From Diplonema japonicum (lineage: Eukaryota; Protista; Euglenozoa: Diplonemea), in NCBI GenBank assembly GCA_964019335.1, contig OZ025690.1:248001-312000 (forward strand): a stretch of 64,000 nucleotides of DNA. The letters are read 5' to 3'. The translations under genes were made by a program, and so were the position numbers. Positions 15,512-59,603 of this stretch are shown here, in pieces. Positions within the stretch are counted from its first letter, which is position 1. Each line of letters opens with the position of its first letter. Below the pieces are notes generated by a model. The model did not search any database. It was given only the letters and a program-made list of their open reading frames with translations, and was not told the DNA's origin.

Positions 15512-16283
15512 TGTTTTTTTTTTTTTAAAATACACCCGTCTTTTTTTTTTTTTTTAAATTGAGGGGAATGGGGAAAAGATATGTTTAAAAAAAAAAAAAA
15601 CAGTTTTGTTTGCTTCTTTTCTTTTTCTTTTGGTGTTCCCCCCCCCCCCCCCATTCTTTTCTTTTCTTTTTGTGCGATTTTTTTTTGTTTTGAAAATATT
15701 TACGAAGAAAGAAATTTCTTCCCTATTTTTTTTTTTGAAAAAAAAAAAAAAAAAAAAAAAGCGGAAAGGAAATAACGGAAAAGAGTGGGGGGGGTTTTTT
15801 TTTTTCGTTTACACCACCGGTTATCCCTCGCTGTCCTCGTTCTGAAGGAACTGGCGGCCTACGGCGGTGGGGAAAAAAAAAAAAAATCTTTGCTAAAAAA
15901 AACAGAATCACCAGTACGTTGAAGAGGAAACCCGCAGTACGTGACACAATTGCCTGGAGGCGGCGATCATAGGGAAGGGAGGGGAAGGAGTGGAGAAAAA
16001 AAAGGGGGGGGGTGAAGTAACTAAAAAGAAGAAGACCTTTTTGTAATAGTGACGAATAGGCTTTTTTAATATGCCAATTGGCTGTAGCTGGCCAAAACCC
16101 TGTTATTTCGGACTACTACTGCTGTACCAGAAAGGTCCTATAAGGGGGCTTCAACAATTTTGTGAAAAATGAAAAAATGGTCGTAGCAATATTTTTTTTC
16201 TTTTTCTTTTTCTCCCGGTGTCAGGAAAATATATATGCGTTTTTTTTTTTTTTTTTTTTTTTTTTATGCGCACACCGGGGGTC

Positions 16284-16373
16284 TTCGCTACTTCTGACCA
16301 CCTGGTAGCAGGCCAGGCCTATGATGCTTGCGATGTAATTGATAAGCAAAAAAAAAAAAAAAAAAAAGAAGAA
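16284..16373. repeat. Left copy of ~90-bp direct repeat (putative TSD)
   Basis: 64 nt ttcgctacttctgacc...gataagc identical to 17872-17935, followed by A-run and GAAGAA. Confidence 0.9.
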
Positions 16374-17871
16374 TGACTTTGGTTGCTTCATAAACCGCCT
16401 GGCGTACGAGCAACTTCTTTTCCGCGCTAGCGGATGTTGCTACCCTTCTGTGCTGAAGGATGCATGGCTGCGGGAAGGGTGGACAGCGTTCTGGTAGGTT
16501 GTTGTGCTCTGTAGTCGGGCACGAAGGGGTCGGACCACTCTTTTCTCTGTGCAGTCGGTACTGCGCATTGTCTTTCCAGAATTTCGCACGTTCTGCTGGA
16601 TGCGAATTTCGGCCTTCCGGTGTACCCCTTCAGTCGCTTGGGTGCACCTATCGATCGTAATGCCACGGATTCAGTTATTTCCTTGGGCATGAACGGCTTT
16701 GGTGCGTGTGCCTCGGCTGCGCCCATCAGTCTTTCAATTATTTTTGCCAATCGGTTGGCCCTCTTGATGATGTCGTCTTGCCTGCCCAAAACGTACACCC
16801 CACTCGTCAGCTCGAAATCTATCACTAGCTCTAGTCTAGTCACCGACCCCTGCTTATTCCATTCTAATTTCGAAAGCCACTTAACTACTTCCGGCACAAT
16901 CTGTGCTCCTATGAAGTTCATCTTCAAGTGCTTTCGGAACCACCTCATTTCAGGTACTGTGTACTTGCTCCATAGCGCAGGGCGTCTCCATACATGTACC
17001 CTTTTCTCATTCTTTTCTGCTATCATCTTGGTTGCGTCCGCAAGAGTTATCATGTTGACTAGCAGTTTCTGCACAATTTCCGGCTGTGGTACTTTGCAGT
17101 TTTTCGGTATGATTCCATGAAGTCTTAGACATTGAGGCATATCTTTCTTCGGAAAATTCATTACCGTGGTGTACATCGCTTCTTTCCGTACAGATTCATA
17201 CTCTTTGCACTTCCAGTAGATATGCTCCAGGTATGCTGTGTAGGTTCCAGCCACCTCCCCGCATCCCCTGCACAGTACTCTTGGATCTTCTACCTTGGGG
17301 TGGACCATCCCAAGAGCTCCTGTCAGCATTCTCCTTGCGTTGTTCTGTATTTGCCACGCTTTTGTTGTTTTCCATATCATGTTTGTCCTCTGTTCGTCCA
17401 CACCCTCTTTTATCCCCTCGAGGGTTTGTCGTTCTCGGCACATCTGTCCTCTACGGTATCTCTTGATACGAAGGCGATGCTCATGTACCATCATTCCCTT
17501 TGGTTGCTTGGCAACTGCTCTTAGCCATGTCCATCCTAGCCTGAGTGGTTGAAGTACATTGCGCTTTAGGTTGCTCACCGGCCCTACGCCTCTTTTACTG
17601 TGCACCTTCTTCAGCAGCTTTTTAATTCTTCTGCATCTTTTCCTCACCGGGGCTTTCTTCATCAACTTGGTGTACGCACCTAACATCCTGTACATAGCTG
17701 CTAGTAGGGTCGGTGATGAACGAGTCGCGTACTTGGGTCCCCAAAGTGCATCTGTCACTGCTATCCTGAGGTCTTCAAGGCGTTGCCGTGGCTCGTACAA
17801 AACACCATATAGGGCCGCCGGGATTTTGTTTTGTGCCACTATCAACGATTTTTTCACGAACGGCAGTTGTG
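16374..17871 (-). mobile_element. 5'-truncated non-LTR retrotransposon (C-terminal ORF part plus 3' UTR)
   Basis: ORF 16427-17857 has a post-RT region, CxxC...H...C zinc knuckle (CRGC...EHIYWKC) and ELVIDFE motif shared with the 34904 and 23576 ORFs; flanked by long direct repeats. Confidence 0.8.
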
Positions 17872-17965
17872 TTCGCTACTTCTGACCACCTGGTAGCAGG
17901 CCAGGCCTATGATGCTTGCGATGTAATTGATAAGCAAAAAAAAAAAAAAAAAAAAAAAAGAAGAA
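17872..17965. repeat. Right copy of ~90-bp direct repeat (putative TSD)
   Basis: Identical to 16284-16373 apart from A-run length. Confidence 0.9.
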
Positions 17966-18952
17966 GAAGAAGAAAATCAAGTGTCAATTAAGAATTTGAT
18001 AAAAGATAAATCCACAAACAACCACAACAAGGTAAGAAGGTACTTTTTTTTTTCTTTTTTCTCTTTCCCCATCCTTCTTGTCCGCCTGCTCTTGGTGTGC
18101 TTTGCCCCCTCCCTCCTTCTCTCAGACATGCTTGGAGCAGCCTGATCGAAGGCTACAGTCCGGCTGCAACCGTTCTGTTGCTATCCTGGGGGGTAGCAAA
18201 ATGATCTTCTACAAAGAAAGTTTAAAATTGAAAAATAAGAGGGGCAAGTTATTTCTTTATTTTGTGCTAACCTGATACAGAAAAGAATTTTTTTTTTTTT
18301 ATTTTACTCTTCAGAAATTACTTCACGCACTGGGGGGCCCATTACTTCACGCTAAATCTCATTACTTCACGGTGAAATAATGGCCTGTTTTCCGTGAAGT
18401 AATAGGGGGTTTCCAATTTTTGCCTCGGTTCGGTTCCCAGTGGGGCTACTTTTCCCTCCCAGTTTGCTATTTCCCCCCAGGTTCAGCTCAATTGGCCAAC
18501 TTTTGCCTCGGCTCAGTTCCAAGTTGGACTACTTTTTCCTCCCAATTTGCCCACTTTTGGCTAGGCCTTGTTCCCAGTTTCTGGGTAACTCTTCTGTGGG
18601 TAAGGGTAACTTAGTCAGCTTACCCAAGCACCCCAAAAGACTTCAAAATACCGAAGCAGCAGAAAAAAAGGAGCCAGCAGCCGCGCTAGGTATGAGAAGG
18701 CCTGATTAGAGATGGTGACAGTGGCAATGCCAGCGACAGCGGCAGCTCTTAGTCAACAAAAGGAGGGAAAACAACTTGTATTGTAACCTTTGTAACCCCT
18801 CTCTTGTTGTACCCCTTGTCACCCTGTTGTGCCCCTCGTGGTGAAGTAATTTCAGAGTGTCGTGAAATAAAACCACTTACCTACCGCCAAGTAATGCTTT
18901 ACCGACCTCTCGGTAACGGTAAGTCATTACTTGTTGGCAGTAAATAGCTATT

Positions 18953-19465
18953 ATTTCACTCTTCGTCATTTTCTTCACTCACTAGGGGCCTCATTACTTA
19001 ACGCGAAATGGCCATTATTTAACGCGAAACCGCCATTATCTAACGATTTTGCAGTTAAATAATGGCCCTTCGCCGTGGAAAAAAATGCACCCAACCCCTT
19101 GAAAAATCTTTTTGGGGTGGGGGTATTTTGACTATTTTTGGCCATCTGAGGCCATTCCAGCCCTTAAAAGTGGGAATAAGTGCCCTACTTCCCCTTTAAA
19201 TGCCACGGCGAAATAGCTACCCTGTATTACCTTAGGAAAATCCCCGAAAAGCTGACCTGCGTGAAAAAAAAACAGCAGTGAAAGCAGTGAAGAGTGAGTG
19301 ACTCAAATGACGAAGAGTGAAATAAAACGACTTACTTGCCGCCAAATGAGCCATTATTTAACACTCGTTACCGTTTTTTTGCACGAGGGCCCTGCGGGCC
19401 CTCGTGCAAAAAATTCGGGAACTCGAGTTAAATATGACTCATTATTTGTTGGCAATAAATAGCTA
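18953..19465. mobile_element. MITE-like repeat, copy 1 (inverted repeats atttcactcttcgtcattt / aaatgacgaagagtgaaat plus shared right flank)
   Basis: Near-identical to 20536-21102; internal ccattatttaacgcgaaa tandem units. Confidence 0.75.
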
Positions 19466-19555
19466 TTTTTTTTTTTTTGCGTAAAACACTGTCGAATATA
19501 GGTTTTTCTTTTGACTAGTTCTCGTTCATCACAAAAAAAAAGGGGGGGGGGCTTT

Positions 19556-19648
19556 GATTGCAACACTAGGTGGCGTTAAGCGTGCAACAAAAAAAAAAAA
19601 AAAAAAAAAGAGACATTTAAGGGTACCTGCGGTATGTGGCAGGACGCC
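19556..19648 (-). mobile_element. Chained orphan retroelement-like 3' tails (tail 3, poly-T, tail 2)
   Basis: 19610-19648 equals 23759-23797; 19556-19588 equals the 3' ends of the elements at 40512 and 41451. Confidence 0.7.
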
Positions 19649-19730
19649 AAAAAAAAATAGAAGACAGAGATGGCTGCTCGACGTGAGAAGAAAAAGAAAC
19701 TGTAACAAAGAAAAAGAAAAAAAATGGGGG

Positions 19731-19761
<31 letters not shown>

Positions 19762-20535
19762 TTTTTTTCTTACAGCTACATGTGCTCACGGGAAAGTTCT
19801 CAAGGGAAAAAAAAGAAGAAAGAAATAGGGCGAAGAATAGGGAGAAAAAAAAAGAAGAAAAAAAAAAGAACATAGAAAGGATATGGTAAAAACTTCGGGA
19901 GAAGAACGACTGACGGTGCTCGGATGGGGATGTGGCAGGGAAAATGGGAGTTTAAAAAAAAAAAAAAAAAGAGGGTGAGGAGAGTGGATAAACAGTGGAA
20001 GCAGTTCCCCTGTTTCCAAAAGGGGGGTGAAAAAAACATTGTCCCCACAGTTAAATGGGATCCAAAAAAAAAAAAAGAAATCCAAGCATTCGGTTCATAC
20101 CTTCCCCCCTCCTTACCCTGACCGTTTTTCATTATAAGAAAAGAAGAATAAAAACTAGACATTTTAAAGTGTTTCTCACATCGCAAAGCTGCTTCAGCGG
20201 GTTTACGCAGGTCCTCGTTTATGCTCCTCACGTCCGGGCACAGTGCAAAGGCGCACGAGGTCATAGCCGTCCCTCGCTTCATGGCCACCAGAGCTGGTTG
20301 CCCCCACCTTGCCATGCCTCTGTACGAAAAAAAAAAAAAAAAAAAAAAGGAGAGAGAGAGAGAAGAAAAGAAAAGAAAAGCATCCTGAACATAAAGAGAT
20401 TTAAAAGAAACGAAAAGAAGAAAAAAAAAAATGGTATAACTAAGGGTCATCACGAGTGAGACCTATTTTATTTATTCCCACCCCTCCTTTCTTTCAACGT
20501 CTGTAAAACAAAAAAAAAACTTTTTTTTTTTTTTT

Positions 20536-21100
20536 ATTTCACTCTTCGTCATTTTCTTCACTCACTAGGGGCCTCATTATTTAACGCGAAATGGCCATTA
20601 TTTAACGCGAAACGGCCATTATTTAACGCGAAATCGCCATTATTTAACTAGTTAAATAATGAGATTTTGCAGTTAAATAATGGCCCTTCAGAGTGGAAAA
20701 ATGAGTCTCGCCGTGGAAAAAAATGCACCCAACCCCTTGAAAAACTTTTTTGGGGTGGGGGTATTTTGACTATTTTTGGCCATCTGAGGCCATTCCAGCC
20801 CTTAAAAGTGGGAATAAGTGCCTTACTTCCCCTTTAAATGCCACGGCGAAATAGCAACCCCATATTACCTTAGGAAAATCCCCAAAAAGGCTGACCTGCG
20901 TGAAAAAAAACAGCAGTGAAAGCAGTGAAGAGTGAGTGACTCAAATGACGAAGAGTGAAATAAAACGACTTACTTGCCGCCAAATGAGCCATTATTTAAC
21001 TCTCGTTACCCGTTTTTTTGCACTCGGGCCCTGCGGGCCCTCGTGCAAAAAATTCGGGAACTCGAGTTAAATAATGACTCATAATTTGTTGGCAATAAAT

Positions 21101-21102
<2 letters not shown>
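20536..21102. mobile_element. MITE-like repeat, copy 2
   Basis: Near-identical to 18953-19465 with one extra internal tandem unit. Confidence 0.75.
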
Positions 21103-21137
<35 letters not shown>

Positions 21138-23323: not shown

Positions 23324-23740
23324 CTCAAAGTACAGGACAAGCCCCCCGCTAGAGGGCCGCCCAATGGGAGGGGGGGGTCTATCTGTTAATACTCCCCTTC
23401 TGGAGCATTGCTTTCATCCCGATTGAAGCCGTGAGCGTCTTGCGGAGTCGTGTGATGCGGTCCCGCTTGTAGTCGGCTTTCAATTCCATTAGCTTGTCGT
23501 GCGTGGAGCGGGTGGCGAAAATAGGCCTCCTGGAGAAACCAATAGCTGCCTTTCCTCCAATGGCGATGAGGGACTTCACTCTTTTTCTCTCGTCCGCTGG
23601 GAAGGGGCGTCGCTTCTTCCGTGCCCTGCTGTGTTTACCTTTACGATGAGAGCTTTGATTCTGCGCGCCCTATCTTCCAGCAGGCCTCCCAAAGACTTTC
23701 CGGTCGTCCATTCGAAGTCAATGGCCAGTTCCACCGCCGC
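23324..23740 (-). mobile_element. LINE 3' fragment with tail 4 (frameshifted)
   Basis: VELAIDFEWTTG...SLIAIGG...GFSRRPIFA is homologous to the C-termini of the 16427 and 34904 ORFs; ~23324-23570 nearly identical to 55198-55450. Confidence 0.8.
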
Positions 23741-23852
23741 CAAAAAAAAAAAAAAAAAGAGACATTTAAGGGTACCTGCGGTATGTGGCAGGACGCCTAA
23801 AAAATAATCGGAATAACTTCTTCTTCCAGGCTTCGCCTTTAGCAAAGAAAAA

Positions 23853-23968
23853 GGCCAATCTGAGTCGACAGTCGGCTCCAAAGTGTACCATAAAGCACTA
23901 GTAGCACATGGGGTGGTTTACGACACATTTCGAGTGCGCTTCAAATACGTGGTCACCACTCAGACATG
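23853..23968. repeat. Dispersed repeat (copy at ~27101-27216; diverged relatives at ~56700-56815 and ~57903-57992)
   Basis: Shared ggctcca(a)agtgtaccata..gtac/gcac..ggggtgg motif. Confidence 0.7.
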
Positions 23969-24301
23969 TAAAATATTACTTTTGAATCCACAAAAACAAG
24001 TGCTTCTGTTCATTATAAAAATAAATAATAATAAAGACCACCTCGTTCACCAGGTTAGAAAAGAACGGGGTCGAGAAAGTTGTTTGGGAGGAAGGAAAAG
24101 GACAAAATTCAATCTTTTAAAGTCGCTGCCCAACATACACACCAAATCCACAATAACAAGTGTTTCGGTTCATCAAACAATAAAATAAAATAAAGACCAC
24201 GTGCATCAAGCTAGAAAGAAAGGGGTCTTGGGGGAAAGGGGAAGGGGGGGTTGAAGGGAAAAGAAGAAAGAACCAATATAATAAGAGACACAGAAGAAAA
24301 G

Positions 24302-26707: not shown

Positions 26708-27274
26708 TCTATTTTTTTTTTTTTTTTTTTCCTTTTTTGTTTCTAACCAAAGGTTTGTGTTGTGAAACATGAAACAAAAGATGGAGAAGCAAACATGAAC
26801 GTTCTTTCGTTGTGCGGGAGGGAAAAAGAGATAGGGGAAAGGAAAGAAAAAAATTGGGAAAAAACAGTCTAACTTTGTTAAATGGTGGTGGTAAAGGGTA
26901 AGAAGCGAGAAGGAAATCAGATTGTTAACAGAAATAGTCTACGTAAATAAAGAAGAAGGTTTGCGAGAGGAAGGAAAGGACAATAAAAGAAAAAATCGTC
27001 GGATAAAATTCTTCTTAGAAAGGGCTTCATTCTCCTTCACATCAAGGTGCCACAAGGTGACGGCCCCTTTAAGGGAGTAGAAGAGAAAAGCAAAGAAAAA
27101 GGCCAATCTGAGTCGACAGTCGGCTCCAAAGTGTACCATAAAGCACTAGTAGCACATGGGGTGGTTTACGACACATTTCGAGTGCGCTTCGAATCTGTGG
27201 TCACCACTCAGACATGTTAACGCTGCCAAATATTCTTTTTGAAACAACAATAAAAGTGTTTCTAAAAGAATAAA

Positions 27275-27631
27275 TTCACTATGATAGGAACGAAGTGGTT
27301 AGCAACGGCTACCGCCAATAAATTATATACAAGAGTTGAAGGAGGCCGGTGTTGGCGGCGCCCTGCACCAGAACTGTCTACTTGATCACAGAGGCGCACC
27401 GTAGCCGAGTTGTAGCTTCTTCTGCGTCCGCATCGTGTCCTTAATGCGTGCAGTGTGCAGTTCAACCCTAGCCGGGGCGTCCCGGGTAACCAAGATTAGG
27501 CGCTCATGCAGTTTGCTACCTGTTCTTCGTCACTCTTCGACTCAGGCGCTACCGGTGATAACTGACGTGGAGGTCAACAGCGAATAACACATTTGATGTA
27601 CTTCTTATATTCCCATGTTGTCCCCACCACC
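27275..27631 (-). mobile_element. SINE-like family A element (degenerate HDV-like ribozyme head, LINE tail 1)
   Basis: Homologous to 40545-40828 but ends in gttgctaaccacttcgttcctatcatagtgaa, the 3' end of the LINE at 34880. Confidence 0.8.
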
Positions 27632-34452: not shown

Positions 34453-34879
34453 TTCTTTTTTTCTTCTTTTTTTTTTTTGTTGTCGTGTGTTTTTTTTTTT
34501 TTACCTTTTTTTTATTTTGAATTTTTTTTTTTTTTGGTGTGATATTGGTAAATAAAGAAAATTGAAGGGGATGGGGGGGGAGCCTTAAAATATATAATAT
34601 AATAACGGGGGGTGTGGGGGTGTATACAAATAAAATGAACAGGTTTTTTTTTCTTTTTTTTTCCCCTTCCTTTTTTTTTTCTTCTCTGATAAAAAAAAAA
34701 GTGCATTTCTTATTTCCATGTGTGGAAGAAGGGGGGGGGGGGTAAAACAAAGATAAAAAAATAGATTGAGGGAAATGGTGGGGTGAATAGAATGCAGCGA
34801 AGGAGAAAAAAAAATGAATGAAACAATGCCATTTTACCGGGGCACGGGTACAAAGAAAGAAGAAAAAAAAGAAAGAAAA

Positions 34880-36760
34880 TTCACTATGATAGGAACGAAG
34901 TGGTTAGCAACCCTTTTGGGGTCGTTCCCTGCTACCCACCGTAGTGCCTAGCTGTCGTTTATATCTTCCAATCCTTTCTTTCCGGTAATCTTCTCTCAGT
35001 CCTTTCAGCTTCGCCGTCAGCCCCGATGCAAACAGGGCCCTCCTATCAAAGCCAACGACGTGGTCGCGGCCAATGGATCGTAGTGATCTCACGTTCTTGC
35101 ATGACTGCGCCGGAAAAGCGCGTCTCCTCTTCTCCCTCATCCATGTCGCTTGCAGCGTATCCAGGATCCGCTTGATCCTCACCGCCTTCTTGTCGATGTC
35201 AATCGTCGTGTTGATGTTAACCCCCAGCGTCTTCTTCGTGTAGCACTCGAAGTCAATCGCCAGCTCGATCGCCGACACGGACGTTCCCTCCTCCGCCCAC
35301 CGCAGCGCAGCCAGCCATCTCAGCACCTGATCACCATACTCCCTGAGCTGCGGGGTCAGCTTGAGCTTGTACAGTTCCACAACCTTTGGCGCCTCGAAAC
35401 GCCTTCCTTGAGTCGTCACCATCCACGGCGGTTCCTTCTCAACCGCGAACCGCTTCACCACCAGAGCATCGTCCCTGCGCCTCACCACCTCTGCCAAATA
35501 CCTCTGCAGCCTCTCCAAACCGCGGAACACGACCTTCCTCGGGAGAATCCCGTGCAGCTCCAAACAGACCGGCCACCTTTCGCTCCTGACCAGACCGGTA
35601 TATACCTCCTTCTTCTGCACCTCCAATGCGACCTCGCACTCCCAAAGCTGGTGTCGCAGCAACCTAACTGTGCTGCCCTTCGCAGCATCACAGACATCGC
35701 AATTGAGCGTTCCCGCTGCTTTGTCCGTCCTCCCCCTATCCAGGTGGTCGGCTTCTTCCTCGCTCCCTTCACCTCCCTCCTCATCAGGTTCTTCAGGAGG
35801 GGAGAGTAAAACTTGTTTCGCATACGGGCTGAGGTACGGCACCGCCCCGGCGATTATCCTCCTCACCCGCCACGCTTCGAGCGGTCTGCGTGCGCTGCAC
35901 TTCATCCAGTAAGCGTTCGTTGCAGGGGCCGCGCCCTTCCCAAGCCCGGCCATCGTGCTTCGCGTCTTCACAATACCCGATGTCCTCATCCTCCGCAGAG
36001 CCTCCCTGAGGTCGTGCCCAGGATTCTCTCCTCTGTGCCAGCTTGCCAGCCTTTCCCACTTACCCGATCGCCGGGAGCCACCTCAGAAGCACATTTCCTA
36101 CGACCCCCCTCGGCCTCACCTGCCCAGAAGTTCCGTACGCCTGTGCCAACTGCGTCCATGTTGCCATTGCCCCGTCCTGCCTCAGCCAGCACCTCCTCAG
36201 CATCATCAAAGCACTGTACACTACGGCACACAGCGGGTCCACCCGGTGCGCTCGCGCCAGGATTGACAGTACCACGTCTGGAGATCTTCCTCTGTAGTGG
36301 GGGCCCCACAGGCACTTCACGATCGATCCTTTAAGCTGACTGAGACTCTAGTCACTCGGCGGAGAGAAGCTCGAGCTGTATAGCAGTCCCGGCATAATAT
36401 GAGTTCTGATGAGACTCTCCTTCCTCTGAAAAGAGAGCTGGGTCGAAGCCAGCCTTTCCACTTTCTGTCTTGCAGTAACCGCGGCATCGTTCCAGCTCGT
36501 GCCGCATGCTGTCGTGTTCAGCATAGTTCCCAAGGCCTTATGCTTGTCGACCTTGTTGAGCCTTACCTTCCTTCTTCTTCCGTCCACCTCACTATCCTCC
36601 TCGCAGTTGAGGTCCCCAATCACCACGATCGGCACGTCTCCCAGCTCTATTCGCTTCCTGACCAGAATGTGATGCAGAAGTTGCTCCCGTTCCCTGGCTT
36701 GCACTGCCTCATTGCCAGCTGGTCAGTAGACGTTCAAGAAAAGAAACCACACCCATGCAC
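34880..36760 (-). mobile_element. Internally deleted, decayed APE-type LINE
   Basis: APE remnants LNVY.P and PIVVIGDLN fused directly to post-RT thumb-like KALG...LIRTHIMPGLLY; CDVC...HQLWEC knuckle; ELAIDFE; tail 1 at 34880-34911. Confidence 0.8.
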
Positions 36761-36937
36761 CCTAATCGATTGTAAATGGTGGTGCGAAAAAAAAAGAAAA
36801 GTTAGAATGAGGTAAAGAATGAAAAATGAATCATCATTGCCCCCCCCCCCCCCCCCCCCCCCAGAAATATTCTTTTATTTAGGAAATACGGCGCAATAAT
36901 CGTACCGACGAATACGGTGCTTTAAAAGAGGAAAACA

Positions 36938-37046
36938 GCCGTTACTTGTGTGCACCGGTGGGAAGCCTGGAGAAGGTTATAACCCGTAAACTCATGGCTA
37001 ACGCTCCCCTTTTGTTTAGACAAGTCAAAGACACGGTCTTGCAAAC
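36938..37046. repeat. Dispersed repeat, second copy at ~56512-56617
   Basis: Shared cctggagaag...aacccg...cccttttgtttagacaagtcaaagac...tcttgcaaa. Confidence 0.75.
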
Positions 37047-37116
37047 AAAAAGAAAATAAAGATTTAAAAACCTGCAAAATCTTGCACAAATTGCATAAGG
37101 TAATAAAAAAGCTGGA

Positions 37117-54252: not shown

Positions 54253-55083
54253 TCAATCCTTCAACATCTCGATCACCTCTGGAACCGTCAGCTCCCTGTA
54301 CACCACCTCCGTCGCATGACGAAGTGCGTCGGGGCCCGGGTCGGGTTTTTCGGTCAAAACGTTTCGATACGATTCAATGGCTGCTGTGAAGGGCCCTGCG
54401 GCCGTTGCTACCAAATGGGTTGGGGTGAGCTTCTGGACAGTGAACGCCCAGCCTAGCATCTCAGAGGAGTCAAAGGCACAGGTCGCCGTGAGGCATCCTG
54501 AAGACGACCACTGTGACGGCTTGAACTCAATTCTAGACAATTCATAACCAAGACCGATACCTATAGCCTTGACAAAGGACTCCTTAAGAGTCCACATCAC
54601 ATAGAAATTTGTAAGCTGATCTAAAGAAGTTGTCGGGGTAACGATTATATCCCACTCCGAGGGTGAGAAGCAGTCTTGCATAGACGAAAAGAACTCAGAG
54701 ATGGTTTTGTCGTTTGTCGGGTAATGGGAAGGCTGGACCTCAATCTTCATTACATCGCACCCTACAAGGACATCTTCGCTGCTTGCGAAGGTCACGTACT
54801 CCCCTTGATGTGATATATTGAAGTTTTCTCCTTGCTCTGTGAAATAAGGTTTGCCTTCCTTTGTTCGCGACGCGGGCTTGCCCTTACCTTGTATATGGAT
54901 CAGCAATCTACCGATTAACGATGATTTGGCGTCAGGGTTGAGCCTCCCTGTTATACCCCTTCCTCTGTTGAATTTTCCTATCCGGTGCGCTTCTACTTCT
55001 GGAAGGATTTTCAGAAGGTTGGACCACTGCTCCTCGGTGGGGTCCCATTCATTGAAGTTTACGGCCCATCTTGTTTCGGGCAT
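54253..55083 (-). CDS. Sfp-type 4'-phosphopantetheinyl transferase (AASDHPPT-like)
   Basis: GKPY, FNISHQG, VGCDVM, FYVMWTLKESFVKAIGIG. Confidence 0.93.
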   Translation of the reverse strand: MPETRWAVNFNEWDPTEEQWSNLLKILPEVEAHRIGKFNRGRGITGRLNPDAKSSLIGRLLIHIQGKGKPASRTKEGKPYFTEQGENFNISHQGEYVTFASSEDVLVGCDVMKIEVQPSHYPTNDKTISEFFSSMQDCFSPSEWDIIVTPTTSLDQLTNFYVMWTLKESFVKAIGIGLGYELSRIEFKPSQWSSSGCLTATCAFDSSEMLGWAFTVQKLTPTHLVATAAGPFTAAIESYRNVLTEKPDPGPDALRHATEVVYRELTVPEVIEMLKD

Positions 55084-55197
55084 TTTTTTTTTTTTTTTTT
55101 TTTTTTGTTGCTTTCCTTTTAACAAAGTGTTGCTTTTTTTTTCTTTTTTTTTTCTTTCCCAATACGAGGGGGGGGGGAAAAAGAAGAAGAAAAAAAA

Positions 55198-55854
55198 CTC
55201 AAAGTACAGGACAAACCCCCCGCTAGAGGGCCGCCCTATGGGAGGGGGGGGGGGGCCTATCTGTTAATACTCCCCTTCTGGAGCATTGCTTTCATCCCGA
55301 TTGAAGCCGTGAGCGTCTCGCGGAGTCGTGTGATGCGGTCCCGCTTGTAGTCGGCTTTCAATTCCATTAGCTTGTCGTGCGTGGAGCGGGTGGCGAAAAT
55401 AGGCCTCCTGGAGAAACCAATAGCTGCCTTTCCTCCAATGGCGATGAGGGAAAAAAGTTGTCTCGATTTTAGTGGTGCCATGCAGTATGTGACACAGCGG
55501 CCACCCTTGTGAAACTTCGCCCCGAAGCCTCCCAAGTCCCCTGTGGTCCCGTAGAAAGTAAAAGTGGAGAGGTAAAGAAAGCTTGGAAATTGAAATAGGG
55601 AGAGGGGCCACAGAAGCAATTAAACCGGGAGGCTACTTGCCTGACCTGGTGAAGCCACCTCCTTGTCCGATGTAATGGGATAGGGACTCTCCGTTGAGGG
55701 CGATGCTAACTGGCGCCACGCGTAGGGCTCTCCACCCCCGTCCAGGTTTCCCCACGTGTACGTCTTTAGAACGAGAGTTTCCCTTTCGCTTGTGTTTCTC
55801 CAAACCACAATTACCAGGAACCACCACAGGGAGGTTGGAAACATTCGTCCCCCC
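55198..55854 (-). mobile_element. Non-autonomous LINE derivative, family B (HDV-like ribozyme head, UTR-like body, LINE 3' end with tail 4)
   Basis: 3' ~250 nt nearly identical to 23324-23570; 5' end folds as an HDV-like ribozyme. Confidence 0.75.
55777..55852 (-). ncRNA. Predicted HDV-like ribozyme (family B, compact)
   Basis: P1 GGGGAC/GTTCCT with G1-U wobble; P2 GTTTCC/GGAAAC; P3 ACC/GGT; L3 TCCCTGT; P1.1 GG; P4 TTGT(G)GTTT-GGAG-AAACACAA; J4/2 GCGAA with C at 55788. Confidence 0.75.
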
Positions 55855-56248
55855 AAAAAAGAAGCTCGCCGCCCGGATATACTTTTTGTTAAAAAAAGAA
55901 AGGAAAAAAAAAACGGGGGAGGGGAAGCTCTCTTCATCGTCGTTGACTCCAGAGTAGCGTAAGGGGCAGGGGGGTAAGCAAAGTGTTGTTCTTTGTTATT
56001 TCGTAATGCCTAACTCTTTTTTTTTTTAAAAAAATAAAATATGAGCTCGCCCTGAAAAAATATGCCAACAAATTAAAAATTGCTCGTCACAAATTAAAAA
56101 TTGAGAAGTTTGCTTTTTAAGGACCCTTAAGGGATTTTAGCCTAAATGGCAGTATTTTCCCCACCCCATTCTAATAGTGATGGAGAGCCCAAACCACCCA
56201 AAATGACCTTAAGATTCACAGATTTTCCATCTCGCTTTTCAATGATGA

Positions 56249-56285
<37 letters not shown>

Positions 56286-56613
56286 ATTCTAAAAAGCATG
56301 TTTTTGCACGCGCGTTTTAGAAACGAAACAAACGGTGCGCATTGTGCCCTATATGGTGCACACACTTAGACCGCAATTTTACTTTTTGTACACACAAATC
56401 TTCCGAGGGCTTTCCGTTGCAAAAGTCGTTTGTTGACATTTTCTTTTTTTTCTTTTTTTTCTTTTCTGGACAGACTCACTTATATATAAAAAAAAAAAAA
56501 AAGAGAAACTGGCCGTTGTTTGTACGTGCCGGGTAAAACCTGGAGAAGTTTGTCAACCCGAAACACGTTGCCAACGTTCCCCTTTTGTTTAGACAAGTCA
56601 AAGACTCGTTCTT

Positions 56614-56669
<56 letters not shown>

Positions 56670-57375
56670 TCGATCTTTTAACGTCAAGGTGACAAGTCGA
56701 ACAACGCTCCAAGTGTACCATAGAGTACAAGGGGTGGGGGTGTTTGTAGTCAAACGACACATTGGAGTGGGTTCTAACCTGTGCGGCACCACTCCAGACA
56801 TGGCGTACCTGGTCTCCGTTTCCTCGCGGTAGGGTGGGGGGGACATCTTTTTCTTTTGGTTTGCCTTATTCTTGTCTCTCTGCCGAGCACCGTCACCCTG
56901 ACACAGACTTCCCTGGACTCGCTTAAGGGGAGGTGCCGTTACGCACCTAGACCCGGCCAAAGGTCTTGCTGCCCCTTTAAAAAATAGCACGAAACACACA
57001 AGGCCAGGTTGCAACAAAAAAGTGAAGCAGGGTGAGGTGGAACATCCCTTGGTTCCTTTTTGAACAGGCAGAGCTCACGCAGCTGCAGCAGTAAAGGCAA
57101 AGGTAGTTCTCTCAAAACGGGCGAGAGAAAGCACAATAAATTCGGATCTTTACAGTAATTATGAGCGCGAGCTTATAATTATTGTTACGTCAGAGGGGAG
57201 AAAAAAAAAAACGGAAGGAGGGTGGTGGTGACCCACCCATGGGTAAGGGAGGATAGCAGCCTTCCCACTCAAGAATAATAAAACAATAAATTACCGGGGA
57301 AGTAAAAAAAACTTCCGGTCCGCCCGGGAGCTTTCCGGTAATTTTTTTACTTCCGGAATTAATTGTTTTATGGTG

Positions 57376-57416
<41 letters not shown>

Positions 57417-57627
57417 CCAGAGAAAAGCCGGCGCTCATACAATTTGTTGTTCACACGAGCAAAAAAAAAAAAAAAGAAGTTTTTAAAAAAAGCTGCGAAA
57501 ATCTTTTTCGTTTTTTTTTTTTTTTTTTTTTTTTTCGAAATAACAATGGACCCACCCGTGCGAAACTAGGGGGAAGAAATTAAAGGGAGGAGGATATCGG
57601 GGTGCACGGCGGAGGTTACAAAAAATA

Positions 57628-57698
57628 TTCACTATGATAGGAACGAAGTGGTTAGCAACGGCCCGCCGCGGTGGCGTGCCTACCTTATGATGCTCCCC
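57628..57698 (-). mobile_element. Short insertion ending in LINE tail 1
   Basis: Exact ttcactatgataggaacgaagtggttagcaac on +. Confidence 0.7.
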
Positions 57699-58146
57699 TT
57701 TCTTAAATATTTATTTTTCAAAGAAATGATGTTATAACTAAATGCAACTTGTGCCGGGCAAAAAACTTTCGCAGCTTTTTTTTTTTTCTTCTTTTTTTTT
57801 TTTTTTTTTCCTTTCTGCTCAGACACAAGTTGCATATAGTTATAAAAAATTGTTTTTTGAAAATGAATTTAACACAACTCAAACGGCGTCAGTACGACCA
57901 CCAGACGGCTCCAAGTGTCCCATAGAGTACATGGGGTGGGGGTTTTTGTAGCCACTACGGCGCCACCTCTCAGACATGGCGTGCCTGGTCTCACCCCTGT
58001 TTTGAGGTCTTTTAGTGTTTAGTCGACAGTTGCTCCGCCGCTTACCAAAAAGGAAAAAGAAAGAAGGAAACTTCCTCCTCCCCCCCTTTTTTTTTTGTTG
58101 TTGGAACCAGGAGTAGTAATCATGGCGCCAAAATGTTTCTATTTAA

Positions 58147-59536
58147 CCATCTACCAACGAGTGTCTTTATAAACACGATTTGAAAAAAAATCTTTTGCGC
58201 AAAGGGCTTTCAATGCAATAAGGCCCGGCCGAACAATGTGGCAAATGCGGCTAAAAAAGGTGTTACCCTGGATCTCGATGCTGCTTCTCTGCATACCTTC
58301 CTAGGTGCCCTTTTGTCGATGGACTTGGATATCAAGCCAGATTATTCTGATTACTGGTGCACTAGTTCCACGCCTCTCAACCACACCCCTGGGTACGCCA
58401 CCGTCATGTCAAGAGACCGCTTTTTGACTATTCTGAGAAATCTGTGTTTCCACAGCGAAACAAACAAGCGTGCTGACTTCTACCTTTCGCAAAGGCCTCC
58501 CGGAGATCACGGATGCCCCAAAGAAGCGAGGCCGCAAGCCCAAGGACGCGCGTCCTGTGGGGACACCCAGTTCCACCAGCACGTGAGCATCCTTTGCACC
58601 ACAACGTGGCATGACATCAAGCCTGAGCGCTTTCTGTCGACGTTGGATGTTCTGGTGAAGTCAAATTTGACGTGTCGGCCAAAAGAGAATGAAAGCCGGA
58701 AAGGACATCCTGCTCCCCACCAAGTGCATATTTACAACACCGCAATGGGCGGAACCGACGCTGGGTGACGCTGTGACAAAACGCCATAAACGCACCCTTA
58801 TGACTTCGAAGTGGCCCCTGAAAGTATTTTCGTACTTGTTAGATAAATCTCTGGCAAATGCCTAGCTCGTTTGGAAAGAAGCATTGCCCCCCAACACCCT
58901 GAGTACGAACGACAGTGGATTCACGCCTTTCAAAGAGGCAGTCATCGAAGGGCTACTAGGGAGGCTGTTTAAACAACAGCTAAAGTCAACTACAGAGCAG
59001 GCTGCCCCAATACCATGCCCCGAAACACAGAACGAGTGCCCTGGGACCCCAATGTGCCGTGACAGTACCTTCTGGGACCATTTCCCCGAAAAAGTAGCGC
59101 AACGTGCGGTACAAGCATGGCAAGTCGAAATGACCCCAGTTCCAGTGTTCAGTCTGCTTGGTACAACTTTGCGTGACTCCGTGCTTCAAAGACTACAACC
59201 TTCCAGGAATACCCCCCAAAAACCCCTCTCGGGGTCAAAAAAGAAGTCCCCCAGCCCTGGGGCACATACGAACCGCGTCAAGAAGGCCTTAAATAGCTTT
59301 TTATAGAATTTTACAGTCGATTTTTTTTTGACTTGTTTTTTGTACCCCCTCTCGGGCACTTCAGGAACGATATTTTTGGAATGTTGTGGGGGTGGGCTGG
59401 GCACCCTCTCTCTAGAATTGGGACATCTGGAGGCATTTCCGGGGGCATACAGCCCCGGCGTTGCGCTAGAATAGTTTTTTTTTGAAGTTTTGAAAATTTA
59501 CCCCCTGGTAGGCAAAAATGGTCCGTTGGTAGATGG
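58147..59536 (+). mobile_element. Decayed piggyBac-like DNA transposon
   Basis: TTAA-ccatctaccaacg ... cgttggtagatgg-TTAA; transposase remnants MSRDRFLTILRNL, YNTAMGGTD, KWPLKVFSYLLD and a Cys-rich C-terminus, broken by deletion, stops and frameshifts. Confidence 0.9.
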
Positions 59537-59552
59537 TTAAAAAAAAAAAAGA

Positions 59553-59603
59553 TTTTCACTATGATAGGAACGAAGTGGTTAGCAACGGCCCGCCAAAAGG
59601 GGG
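59553..59603 (-). mobile_element. ~50-nt tail-1 retro-insertion with target-site duplication
   Basis: Flanked by direct repeats ggtagatggttaaaaaaaaa..ga (from 59528 and 59604). Confidence 0.75.

What the first reader, a model, noticed from the sequence alone, without database searches (positions are those of the whole stretch)
55198..55854. Second, unrelated HDV-like ribozyme heading a RIME/NARTc-like LINE derivative
Seen: minus-strand 55852-55777 gives a compact HDV fold with a G1-U wobble, ACC-TCCCTGT-GGT, GG, a P4 hairpin, GCGAA and a 6-bp P2. P1 is only 6 bp and the top of P2 is mismatched. Next come ~330 nt of non-coding sequence, then ~250 nt nearly identical to the LINE 3' fragment at 23324-23570. 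Inference: this is an internally deleted LINE that kept both cis ends, so the autonomous clade itself probably starts with a ribozyme. It lies ~115 nt upstream of the PPTase ATG, so cleavage could affect processing of that pre-mRNA.
Basis: partly seen in the sequence, partly recalled or inferred. Interest (0 to 1): 0.8.

Follow-up and report, generated by a model that had tools for sequence, protein, structure and literature searches.

The report
Ribozyme-headed short retroposon, diplonemid flagellate
In a marine flagellate, this stretch is two different jumping-gene pieces lying back to back: a 400-base non-coding repeat whose front end is predicted to cut itself out of the host's long transcripts, and the broken tail of a separate retrotransposon; such self-cutting elements are known from trypanosomes, and my searches did not find them reported for this group.

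Summary
The HDV-like fold at 55852-55777 (minus strand) is real. It is the best Rfam match of the region (HDV-F-prausnitzii, E 0.09) and sits within 2 nt of the 5' edge of a repeat present at roughly 50-110 times single-copy depth. The 3' 254 nt encode the C-terminus of an APE-RT LINE.

The 657-nt unit is probably not one internally deleted LINE. In contigs of public runs the head often ends at 55451 in its own stem-loop and T-run, followed by varied flanks. Other contigs carry the tail on into LINE body. The tail is also about five times more variable than the head.

Best reading: a ~400-nt ribozyme-headed non-autonomous retroposon of a diplonemid, stacked (or template-jumped) onto a 5'-truncated LINE at a T-run. 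It likely frees itself from polycistronic pre-mRNA as NARTc/RIME/SIDER do.

Cleavage is untested, competing folds are strong, and the partner LINE is unidentified. The predicted cut lies 769 nt, not 115 nt, upstream of the PPTase ATG. The scan noted ribozyme-headed retroposons before in vertebrates; my look-ups found none for diplonemids. New member of a known kind.

The parts
55855..55860 (-). T6 run at the 5' junction (target-derived or TSD, inferred); the family's 5' edge
   Evidence: loose ends at 55860: X1 26, X5 11, X2 6, X8 5, X3 5
55777..55852 (-). HDV-like ribozyme fold; predicted cut 5' of G55852 (alternative P1 register G55853); predicted catalytic C55788; two further G's (55854-55853) belong to the repeat edge
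   Evidence: variants at 1% or more listed only at 55787, 55789, 55796, 55797 and one 7-nt deletion at 55819 in one contig per run
55768..55776 (-). segment right after P2 that can pair with the 5' strand of P1 (7 bp) and would switch the ribozyme off
   Evidence: nested MFE -26.2 kcal/mol for 55854-55765 with P1 pair probability 0.0
55457..55854 (-). ~400-nt non-coding short retroposon (ribozyme head, body, 3' stem-loop), roughly 50-110 times single-copy depth
   Evidence: no ORF homology; no tRNA and no Pol III A/B consensus
55471..55505 (-). 3' terminal stem-loop of the short element, 8-nt loop CACAUACU at 55491-55484; likely RT recognition signal
   Evidence: same loop with a 5-bp stem and T-run at 23787 and 19638; 0.007 expected per shuffled window
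55451..55456 (-). T6 junction between the short element and the LINE fragment
   Evidence: breakpoints on both sides at 55451
55198..55451 (-). 5'-truncated 3' end of an APE-RT LINE: last 64 codons, stop, 3' UTR
   Evidence: 48% over 40 aa to P0001, E 2e-06; P0005, E 3e-10; P0001 = endonuclease + RT
55167..55197 (-). T-rich tail and pyrimidine tract; holds a 9-nt CTTCTTTTT also found just 5' of the whole composite (possible TSD, low complexity)
54253..55083 (-). 4'-phosphopantetheinyl transferase gene (neighbour; ATG 769 nt downstream of the predicted cut)
   Evidence: Pfam PF22624 + PF01648; closest named relative DIPPA_28153 of Diplonema papillatum, 42%
23324..23742 (-). second, longer 5'-truncated copy of the same LINE tail, itself directly behind a stem-loop stub and a T-run
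23760..23804 (-). ~45-nt stub with the related CACAUACC stem-loop, flanked by T-runs (twin at 19611-19655)

Best explanation
The 657 nt are two separate repeat families joined at a T6 run: a ~400-nt non-coding repeat that starts with a predicted HDV-like self-cleaving ribozyme and ends in its own stem-loop, and the 5'-truncated end of an APE-RT LINE, likely inserted one after the other into the same T-run. Shown: the fold, the multicopy head with its own 5' and 3' edges, and the LINE origin of the tail. Inferred mechanism: the short element has no Pol III boxes and lies in the sense of the gene cluster, so it would be read as part of the host's polycistronic pre-mRNA. The ribozyme would cut co-transcriptionally 5' of G55852/G55853 using C55788 and give the element RNA a defined 5' end. 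The 3' stem-loop and U-run would be bound by the RT of an unidentified LINE, which would copy it by target-primed reverse transcription into T-runs. Each insertion leaves T-runs at its ends, so later insertions would stack on it. An effect on the PPTase mRNA is unlikely, because the cut would fall in spacer RNA upstream of the trans-splice site.
For: - Fold. The P3/L3 core matches the R2 catalytic-region primers printed in PMC3414825 except for two swapped L3 bases.
- 5' edge within 2 nt of predicted G1, with T-run and varied flanks in 5 of the 6 runs laid.
- Single-contig depth over single-copy depth: X8 9359 vs 87-103; X2 7181 vs 72, X4 1636 vs 15, X3 6326 vs 55-117.
- Two-way break at 55451. 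Records X2-13 and X4-29 match only 55451-55581, as a 5'-truncated copy ending at 55451 would. X3-18 and X4-27 run on 2.0 and 1.1 kb past 55451 on the LINE side.
- Variable positions at 5% or more: 26 in the 254-nt tail against 8 in the 403-nt head (40 of 44 rows shown).
- Own 3' stem-loop shared with stubs at 23.8 and 19.6 kb, with one two-sided and two one-sided stem changes.
- The same stub + T-run + next-element stacking is seen at 23.7 kb and 19.6 kb.
- 11 of 11 retro-insertion sites I identified lie on the coding strand, although T-runs are symmetric, 214 vs 210.
- The same logic is shown in vitro for L1Tc/NARTc and SIDERs.
Against: - No cleavage or RNA data.
- Nested folding favours alternatives: P1 pair probability is 0.0-0.001 in all 6 constructs. 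The downstream 9 nt, and at this locus the upstream U-rich flank, can sequester P1 or J4/2-P2'; z 0.60. ViennaRNA cannot form the pseudoknot, so this is a caution, not a refutation.
- The Rfam score is far below gathering.
- One or two G's lie upstream of predicted G1, which precise cleavage does not explain.
- The ribozyme is no less variable than the next 77 nt (4 vs 5 substitution positions at 1% or more), so low variation shows youth, not selection.
- I could not count contigs that bridge 55451, so the composite could be a minor subfamily.
- A 9-nt pyrimidine repeat flanks the whole composite, which also fits one insertion event.
- Depth is a rough proxy; the tool warns it is no copy number.
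- The partner LINE was not found.
Confidence: 0.62

Rival explanations
1. Same two families, but joined in one event: the LINE RT copied 254 nt of its own RNA, then jumped to the U-tail of the short element's RNA and copied it whole (template-switch chimera).
For: A 9-nt CTTCTTTTT lies just 5' of the composite and again 3' of the LINE tail. The 23 kb LINE fragment also sits directly behind a related stem-loop end. Template jumps in vivo are described for R2 (PMC3414825).
Against: The repeat is low-complexity in a pyrimidine tract. LINE-first, short-element-second insertion into the duplicated T-run gives the same sequence. At 19.6 kb the same stub precedes a non-LINE fragment.
Confidence: 0.2
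2. One reading: the whole 657 nt is a RIME/NARTc-like internally deleted LINE family, and the autonomous LINE that owns the tail starts with this ribozyme.
For: Ribozyme at the 5' end and LINE 3' end at the other, in the same orientation. Both parts are high-copy. Bipartite elements of this build are known (PMC5786205).
Against: Head copies end at 55451 with varied flanks (X1 44, X4 14 contigs). Head and tail differ about fivefold in variability. The head has its own 3' stem-loop. No well-supported branch from the ribozyme into other sequence appears among the 24 of 115 loose-end rows shown (weak, 91 rows unseen).
Confidence: 0.08
3. The fold is a vestige or is kept switched off: the family moves as read-through RNA without self-cleavage.
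For: P1 has 6 pairs with two G.U wobbles. The P2 top is mismatched. Competing helices are strong. Extra G's lie upstream of G1. Some trypanosomatid Pr77 folds are inactive (PMC4035085).
Against: The catalytic C, P1.1 (CC/GG), P3 and L3 are intact, with no substitution listed at 1% or more. The element edge coincides with the fold. L1Tc also has an attenuating downstream region yet cleaves co-transcriptionally (PMC3185411).
Confidence: 0.25
4. This copy has been domesticated to regulate PPTase pre-mRNA processing.
For: It lies on the sense strand in the spacer upstream of the gene. Leishmania SIDERs regulate mRNAs from 3' UTRs (PMC4035085).
Against: The cut is 769 nt upstream of the ATG and about 4.1 kb downstream of the previous long ORF. 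Candidate acceptor AGs (55155-55112) lie downstream of the whole insert. The copy differs from the family majority at only 2 substitutions and 2 indels in the head, as a young insertion would. The local flank is predicted to hinder the fold.
Confidence: 0.04

Closest known systems
NARTc/L1Tc, RIME/ingi and SIDER elements of trypanosomatids (Pr77 HDV-like ribozyme; PMC3185411 passages, PMC4035085 parts 1-2 of 7)
   Same: Short non-coding retroposon in a euglenozoan with polycistronic transcription. HDV-like fold of about 76-77 nt at the 5' edge. Downstream sequence able to attenuate the fold.
   Different: Diplonemid host. T-run ends rather than a poly(A) tail. No RNase H domain found in the related LINE proteins P0001/P0002, whereas INGI has one. 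No autonomous partner with the same head shown. No promoter activity tested. Similarity to Pr77 itself not tested.
R2 SIDEs and R2/R1 hybrid SIDEs of Drosophila (PMC3414825, passages)
   Same: Ribozyme head, non-coding middle, LINE-recognised 3' end, dependence on host co-transcription, stacking at a shared target, near-identical P3/L3 core.
   Different: Dispersed at T-runs between protein genes instead of 28S rDNA. The mobiliser would be an APE-type LINE, not R2.
Bipartite non-autonomous LINEs of the RTE, Ingi, Vingi and R2 clades (PMC5786205, passages)
   Same: Non-Pol III short element with a ribozyme-type 5' end and a LINE-type 3' end.
   Different: Neither end is yet traced to a named autonomous LINE, and the clade of the diplonemid LINEs was not determined here.
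Rfam RF02682 HDV-F-prausnitzii (HDV-like ribozyme class)
   Same: Full-length alignment to the model, with P1, P3, L3, GG, P4 and the J4/2 cytosine in place.
   Different: 21.2 bits against gathering 44; eukaryotic retroposon context.

Membership tests
HDV-like ribozyme | Nested double pseudoknot P1, P2, P3, P1.1, P4 in the right order and spacing | tested here: met
   P1 6 pairs + G.G in a 7-position register, P2 6 pairs, P3 3 pairs, CC/GG for P1.1, P4 hairpin. P1 position 7 and the P2 top are mismatched.
HDV-like ribozyme | Catalytic cytosine in J4/2 (PMC10879173) | tested here: met
   C55788; no variant at 1% or more listed there in 4 runs.
HDV-like ribozyme | Score at or above an Rfam HDV family's gathering threshold | tested here: not met
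   21.2 bits vs 44 for RF02682; 0 matches at gathering in the window. This excludes that Rfam family, not the structural class.
HDV-like ribozyme | Helices supported by covariation | tested here: inconclusive
Two low-agreement loose-end consensuses at 55844/55845 hint at variant P1 5' strands.
HDV-like ribozyme | Mg2+-dependent self-cleavage 5' of G1, lost in the C-to-U mutant | not testable with these tools
   Needs an in vitro assay.
Non-autonomous non-LTR retroposon | Dispersed multicopy, non-coding, with fixed 3' end and 5'-truncated copies | tested here: met
   (depth, edges, records X2-13 and X4-29); no coding homology.
Non-autonomous non-LTR retroposon | Target-site duplication | tested here: inconclusive
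   T6 on both sides of the short element and a 9-nt pyrimidine repeat around the composite, both low-complexity. No empty allele seen.
SIDE (RIME/NARTc-like internal-deletion derivative), 657-nt unit | Head and tail travel together as one family | tested here: not met
   Two-way break at 55451 and different variability. A minor composite subfamily is not excluded.
SIDE (RIME/NARTc-like internal-deletion derivative), 400-nt unit | 5' and 3' ends shared with one autonomous LINE | not testable with these tools
   No genome held; genome index unanswered; metagenome scans empty.
Pol III SINE (tRNA/7SL/5S head) | Small-RNA-derived head with A and B boxes | tested here: not met
   ARAGORN 0 genes; no A or B consensus match in the head; no such Rfam match.
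Ingi clade (for the tail's LINE) | APE + RT + RNase H, and placement with ingi/L1Tc in an RT tree | tested here: inconclusive
   Relatives P0001/P0002 have APE and RT, an NPGP motif before the APE, and no RNase H Pfam hit. No tree was built, because no named ingi protein was retrieved.

The most novel reading that the evidence does not exclude
Diplonemids carry several independent families of ribozyme-headed retroposons that home to the T-runs of intergenic spacers in the sense of transcription, stack there and swap heads and tails. Self-cleavage would then be a pan-euglenozoan answer to polycistronic transcription, older than the trypanosome Pr77 system, and hundreds of such ribozymes would add a spliced-leader-independent layer of cuts to diplonemid pre-mRNA.
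Probability: 0.25. Interest if true: 0.65.

Novelty: new member of a known kind. Interest (0 to 1): 0.4.

Why it matters
It would extend ribozyme-headed retroposons from trypanosomatids to their free-living sister group. The D. papillatum genome paper leaves transposons uncharacterised and does not use the word ribozyme (PMC10161547).

Two different HDV-like heads in one 64-kb window, all on the coding strand, suggest that self-release from polycistronic RNA is common in this lineage. That makes a shared euglenozoan origin testable.

The compact 76-nt fold with a 6-pair P1 and a built-in downstream off-switch is an easy bench test. The system type itself is well known, so a specialist would be pleased rather than surprised.

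Tried and rejected
Whole-genome test of head-to-ORF linkage: not possible. No genome was held, and the genome index was busy on all 6 tries.

Metagenome scans: 0 matches for the ribozyme core. For P0001, 594 pattern matches and none confirmed.

Sequencing runs: no RNA holder listed among 21 rows. I laid 6 of the 10 runs holding half or more of the words, all contigs, so RNA ends, strand and expression could not be seen.

Empty-site or heterozygosity test from depth: uninterpretable. The upstream-flank contigs show 0.16-1.06 of the PPTase contig's depth, and repeats at 55073-55205 were skipped.

Descriptor and Rfam scans: the strict descriptor missed the fold. In the whole-window Rfam E-value scan the 150 rows shown of 181 are low-complexity matches with no HDV row.

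Other copies of the head in the window: none.

Pol III SINE: rejected. Coding remnant in the middle 325 nt: rejected.

Clade assignment of the LINE: the RT search returned mostly Diplonema and unnamed proteins, and the Atlas gave only generic RT clusters.

Selection on the ribozyme from low variation: rejected as an argument, because the adjacent body is as invariant.

Scan look-ups by sequence: nothing for head or tail.

Ruminski et al. 2011 (PMC3308841) is not held. It is known here only through PMC5786205 and PMC6765202, and its text or supplements could list protist examples that I could not see.

Full report
HOST. Nearly all long gene-like ORFs of the window lie on the minus strand. The PPTase's closest named relative is DIPPA_28153 of Diplonema papillatum, 42% identical. 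RT relatives of the LINEs are largely D. papillatum or unnamed proteins. The host is therefore a diplonemid; earlier scan notes say the same (unchecked AI notes). Diplonemid genes are described as probably co-transcribed in clusters and matured by spliced-leader trans-splicing (PMC10161547, passages).

THE FOLD. P1 pairs G.U, G-C, G-C, G.U, A-U, C-G with a G.G at position 7; P3 is 3 bp around a 7-nt loop; then GG, a P4 hairpin, GCGAA with C55788, and a 6-bp P2. Rfam on 401 nt ranks HDV-F-prausnitzii first of 5 at 55853-55778, 21.2 bits, E 0.092, below gathering 44. Its alignment starts one G earlier, so two P1 registers are possible. A strict descriptor missed the fold. A loose score set after seeing it ranked it above all 60 shuffles. 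A core-anchored descriptor gave 2 hits in the window against 45 in 400 shuffles, 18 of them at this score or better. On fold alone the chance is about 5% per window. What makes it convincing is that both hits sit at the 5' edge of repeats. The P3/L3 core is nearly the R2 catalytic region as printed in the primers of PMC3414825 (passages). Against: nested folding is unremarkable (z 0.60), and P1 is never favoured in six constructs. Nine nucleotides after P2 can capture the 5' strand of P1, and the local U-rich flank can capture J4/2-P2'. L1Tc has such a downstream attenuator and still cleaves co-transcriptionally (PMC3185411, passages).

THE HEAD IS A MULTICOPY ELEMENT WITH ITS OWN ENDS. Ten runs of one coded organism hold half or more of the region. 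I laid six, all contigs. Depth jumps over 55200-55860. Single contigs stand at roughly 50-110 times single-copy depth (X8 9359 vs 87-103; X2 7181 vs 72; X4 1636 vs 15; X3 6326 vs 55-117); the tool warns that depth is no copy number. The 5' edge is a T-run at 55860 with varied flanks (X1 26, X5 11, X2 6, X8 5, X3 5 contigs), two G's before the predicted G1. In the fold, substitutions at 1% or more are listed only at 55787, 55789, 55796 and 55797, so the short P1 and mismatched P2 top are the family state, not decay. The next 77 nt are equally invariant, so this is youth, not proof of selection.

THE JUNCTION. At 55451 contigs leave the window sequence in both directions (24 of 642 rows shown). 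Head copies end there in a T-run and go on into varied sequence (X1 44, X4 14). Tail copies continue into the LINE body seen in the 23 kb copy (X2 7, X3 5, X4 4). Two long records match only 55451-55581, as a 5'-truncated copy with its 3' end at 55451 would. The tail has 26 variable positions in 254 nt and the head 8 in 403 (40 of 44 rows shown). The head ends in a stem-loop with loop CACAUACU. The same loop with a 5-bp stem and a T-run occurs in 45-nt stubs at 23.8 and 19.6 kb; 0.007 such are expected per shuffled window, for a motif defined after seeing them. The stems differ by one two-sided and two one-sided changes that keep pairing. I could not count contigs that bridge the junction, so a minor composite subfamily is possible.

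THE TAIL. 55451-55198 matches the 23 kb copy at 194 of 195 nt in its core. It encodes the C-terminus of LINE proteins: tblastx to the 34.9 kb ORF, 48% over 40 aa to P0001, E 3e-10 to P0005. P0001 and P0002 carry endonuclease and RT domains with no RNase H hit. The clade was not determined.

STACKING AND ORIENTATION. The 23 kb LINE fragment also follows a stem-loop stub and a T-run, and at 19.6 kb the stub precedes a fragment of another repeat. A 59.5 kb stub is flanked by a duplication that starts with a T-run, and so is the 16.4 kb LINE. All 11 retro-insertion sites I identified are on the coding strand, while T-runs are symmetric, 214 vs 210. I infer T-run targeting and dependence on host transcription. 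A 9-nt pyrimidine repeat around the whole composite leaves a one-step template jump open.

PPTase. The ATG is at 55083. The tail ends 115 nt upstream of it, but the predicted cut is 769 nt upstream and about 4.1 kb below the previous long ORF. Candidate acceptor AGs lie at 55155-55112. By the known logic of trans-splicing (own knowledge) the cut would be in discarded spacer.

MECHANISM. Shown: fold, multicopy head with its own edges, LINE origin of the tail, no tRNA or Pol III boxes. Inferred: co-transcription with the gene cluster, self-cleavage at G55852/55853, capture of the 3' stem-loop by an unknown LINE RT, and insertion at T-runs. How the RNA's 3' end is made is unexplained, and so are the extra G's.

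COMPARISON. It works like NARTc/RIME/SIDER (PMC4035085, parts 1-2 of 7; PMC12278014, passages), R2 SIDEs and bipartite LINE derivatives (PMC5786205, passages; review PMC6765202, passages; catalytic C from PMC10879173, passages). Membership in the SIDE class is not met for the 657-nt unit and untested for the 400-nt unit.

NOT FOUND IN PRINT, within these searches. 'HDV-like ribozyme + retrotransposon + Diplonema' gave 0 papers. 'diplonemid + ribozyme' gave 8, 7 listed, none on this by title or abstract start; I read passages of one, PMC12621601. PMC10161547 has 0 uses of 'ribozyme' in its main text and in 7 supplementary files held. PMC3708506 was seen as a listing only. Subscription papers and Ruminski 2011 were not seen.

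VERDICT. A real and well-placed ribozyme candidate heading a new diplonemid short retroposon, joined to a separate LINE fragment. New member of a known kind; interest 0.4.

Noticed in passing
Only the 40.8 kb copy passes the descriptor. T-rich sequence lies upstream of each copy.
   Followed up: partly
window 27630-27264 (-): This copy of the second family ends in the 3' terminus of the 34.9 kb LINE, unlike its sisters: a head/tail swap or another stack.
   Followed up: partly
window 59547-59594, 57620-57667, 27264-27306 (-): About 45-nt stubs of the 34.9 kb LINE's 3' end. The 59.5 kb stub is flanked by a 17-nt duplication that begins with a T-run.
   Followed up: partly
window 16281-17958 (-): 5'-truncated LINE (482-aa C-terminal ORF with CCHC motif) flanked by a 90-nt direct repeat that begins with a T-run; unusually long for a TSD.
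   Followed up: no
window 34860-36760 (-): LINE remnant in which an endonuclease-domain piece is followed almost directly by post-RT sequence, so it looks internally deleted (blastx to P0001 709-759, then 1349-1901).
   Followed up: partly
window 15970-15900 (-): A more diverged piece with loop CACGUACU, a 3-bp stem and a T-run; possibly an older member of the same 3' end type.
   Followed up: partly
window 55213-55198 and 23339-23324 (-): The LINE tail's last 16 nt loosely echo the stem-loop motif of the short element, so the two 3' ends may be distantly related.
   Followed up: no
window 18924-19478 and 20532-21118: Two copies of a ~550-nt element with internal inverted repeats, MITE-like.
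   Followed up: no
window 58184-58768 (+): Transposase fragment, Pfam DDE_Tnp_1_7, E 8e-16, opposite to the gene strand.
   Followed up: no
window 56028-56215: Another multicopy repeat just upstream of the finding, by contig depth.
   Followed up: no
window 23841-24007 / 27089-27263 and 56706-56752 / 57908-57954; 36924-37060 / 56499-56633: Further short dispersed repeats, each pair in the same orientation.
   Followed up: no
proteins P0001, P0002, P0005, P0024, P0027-P0029 and others: Many relatives of these LINE proteins carry an NPGP (2A-like) motif ahead of the endonuclease.
   Followed up: no
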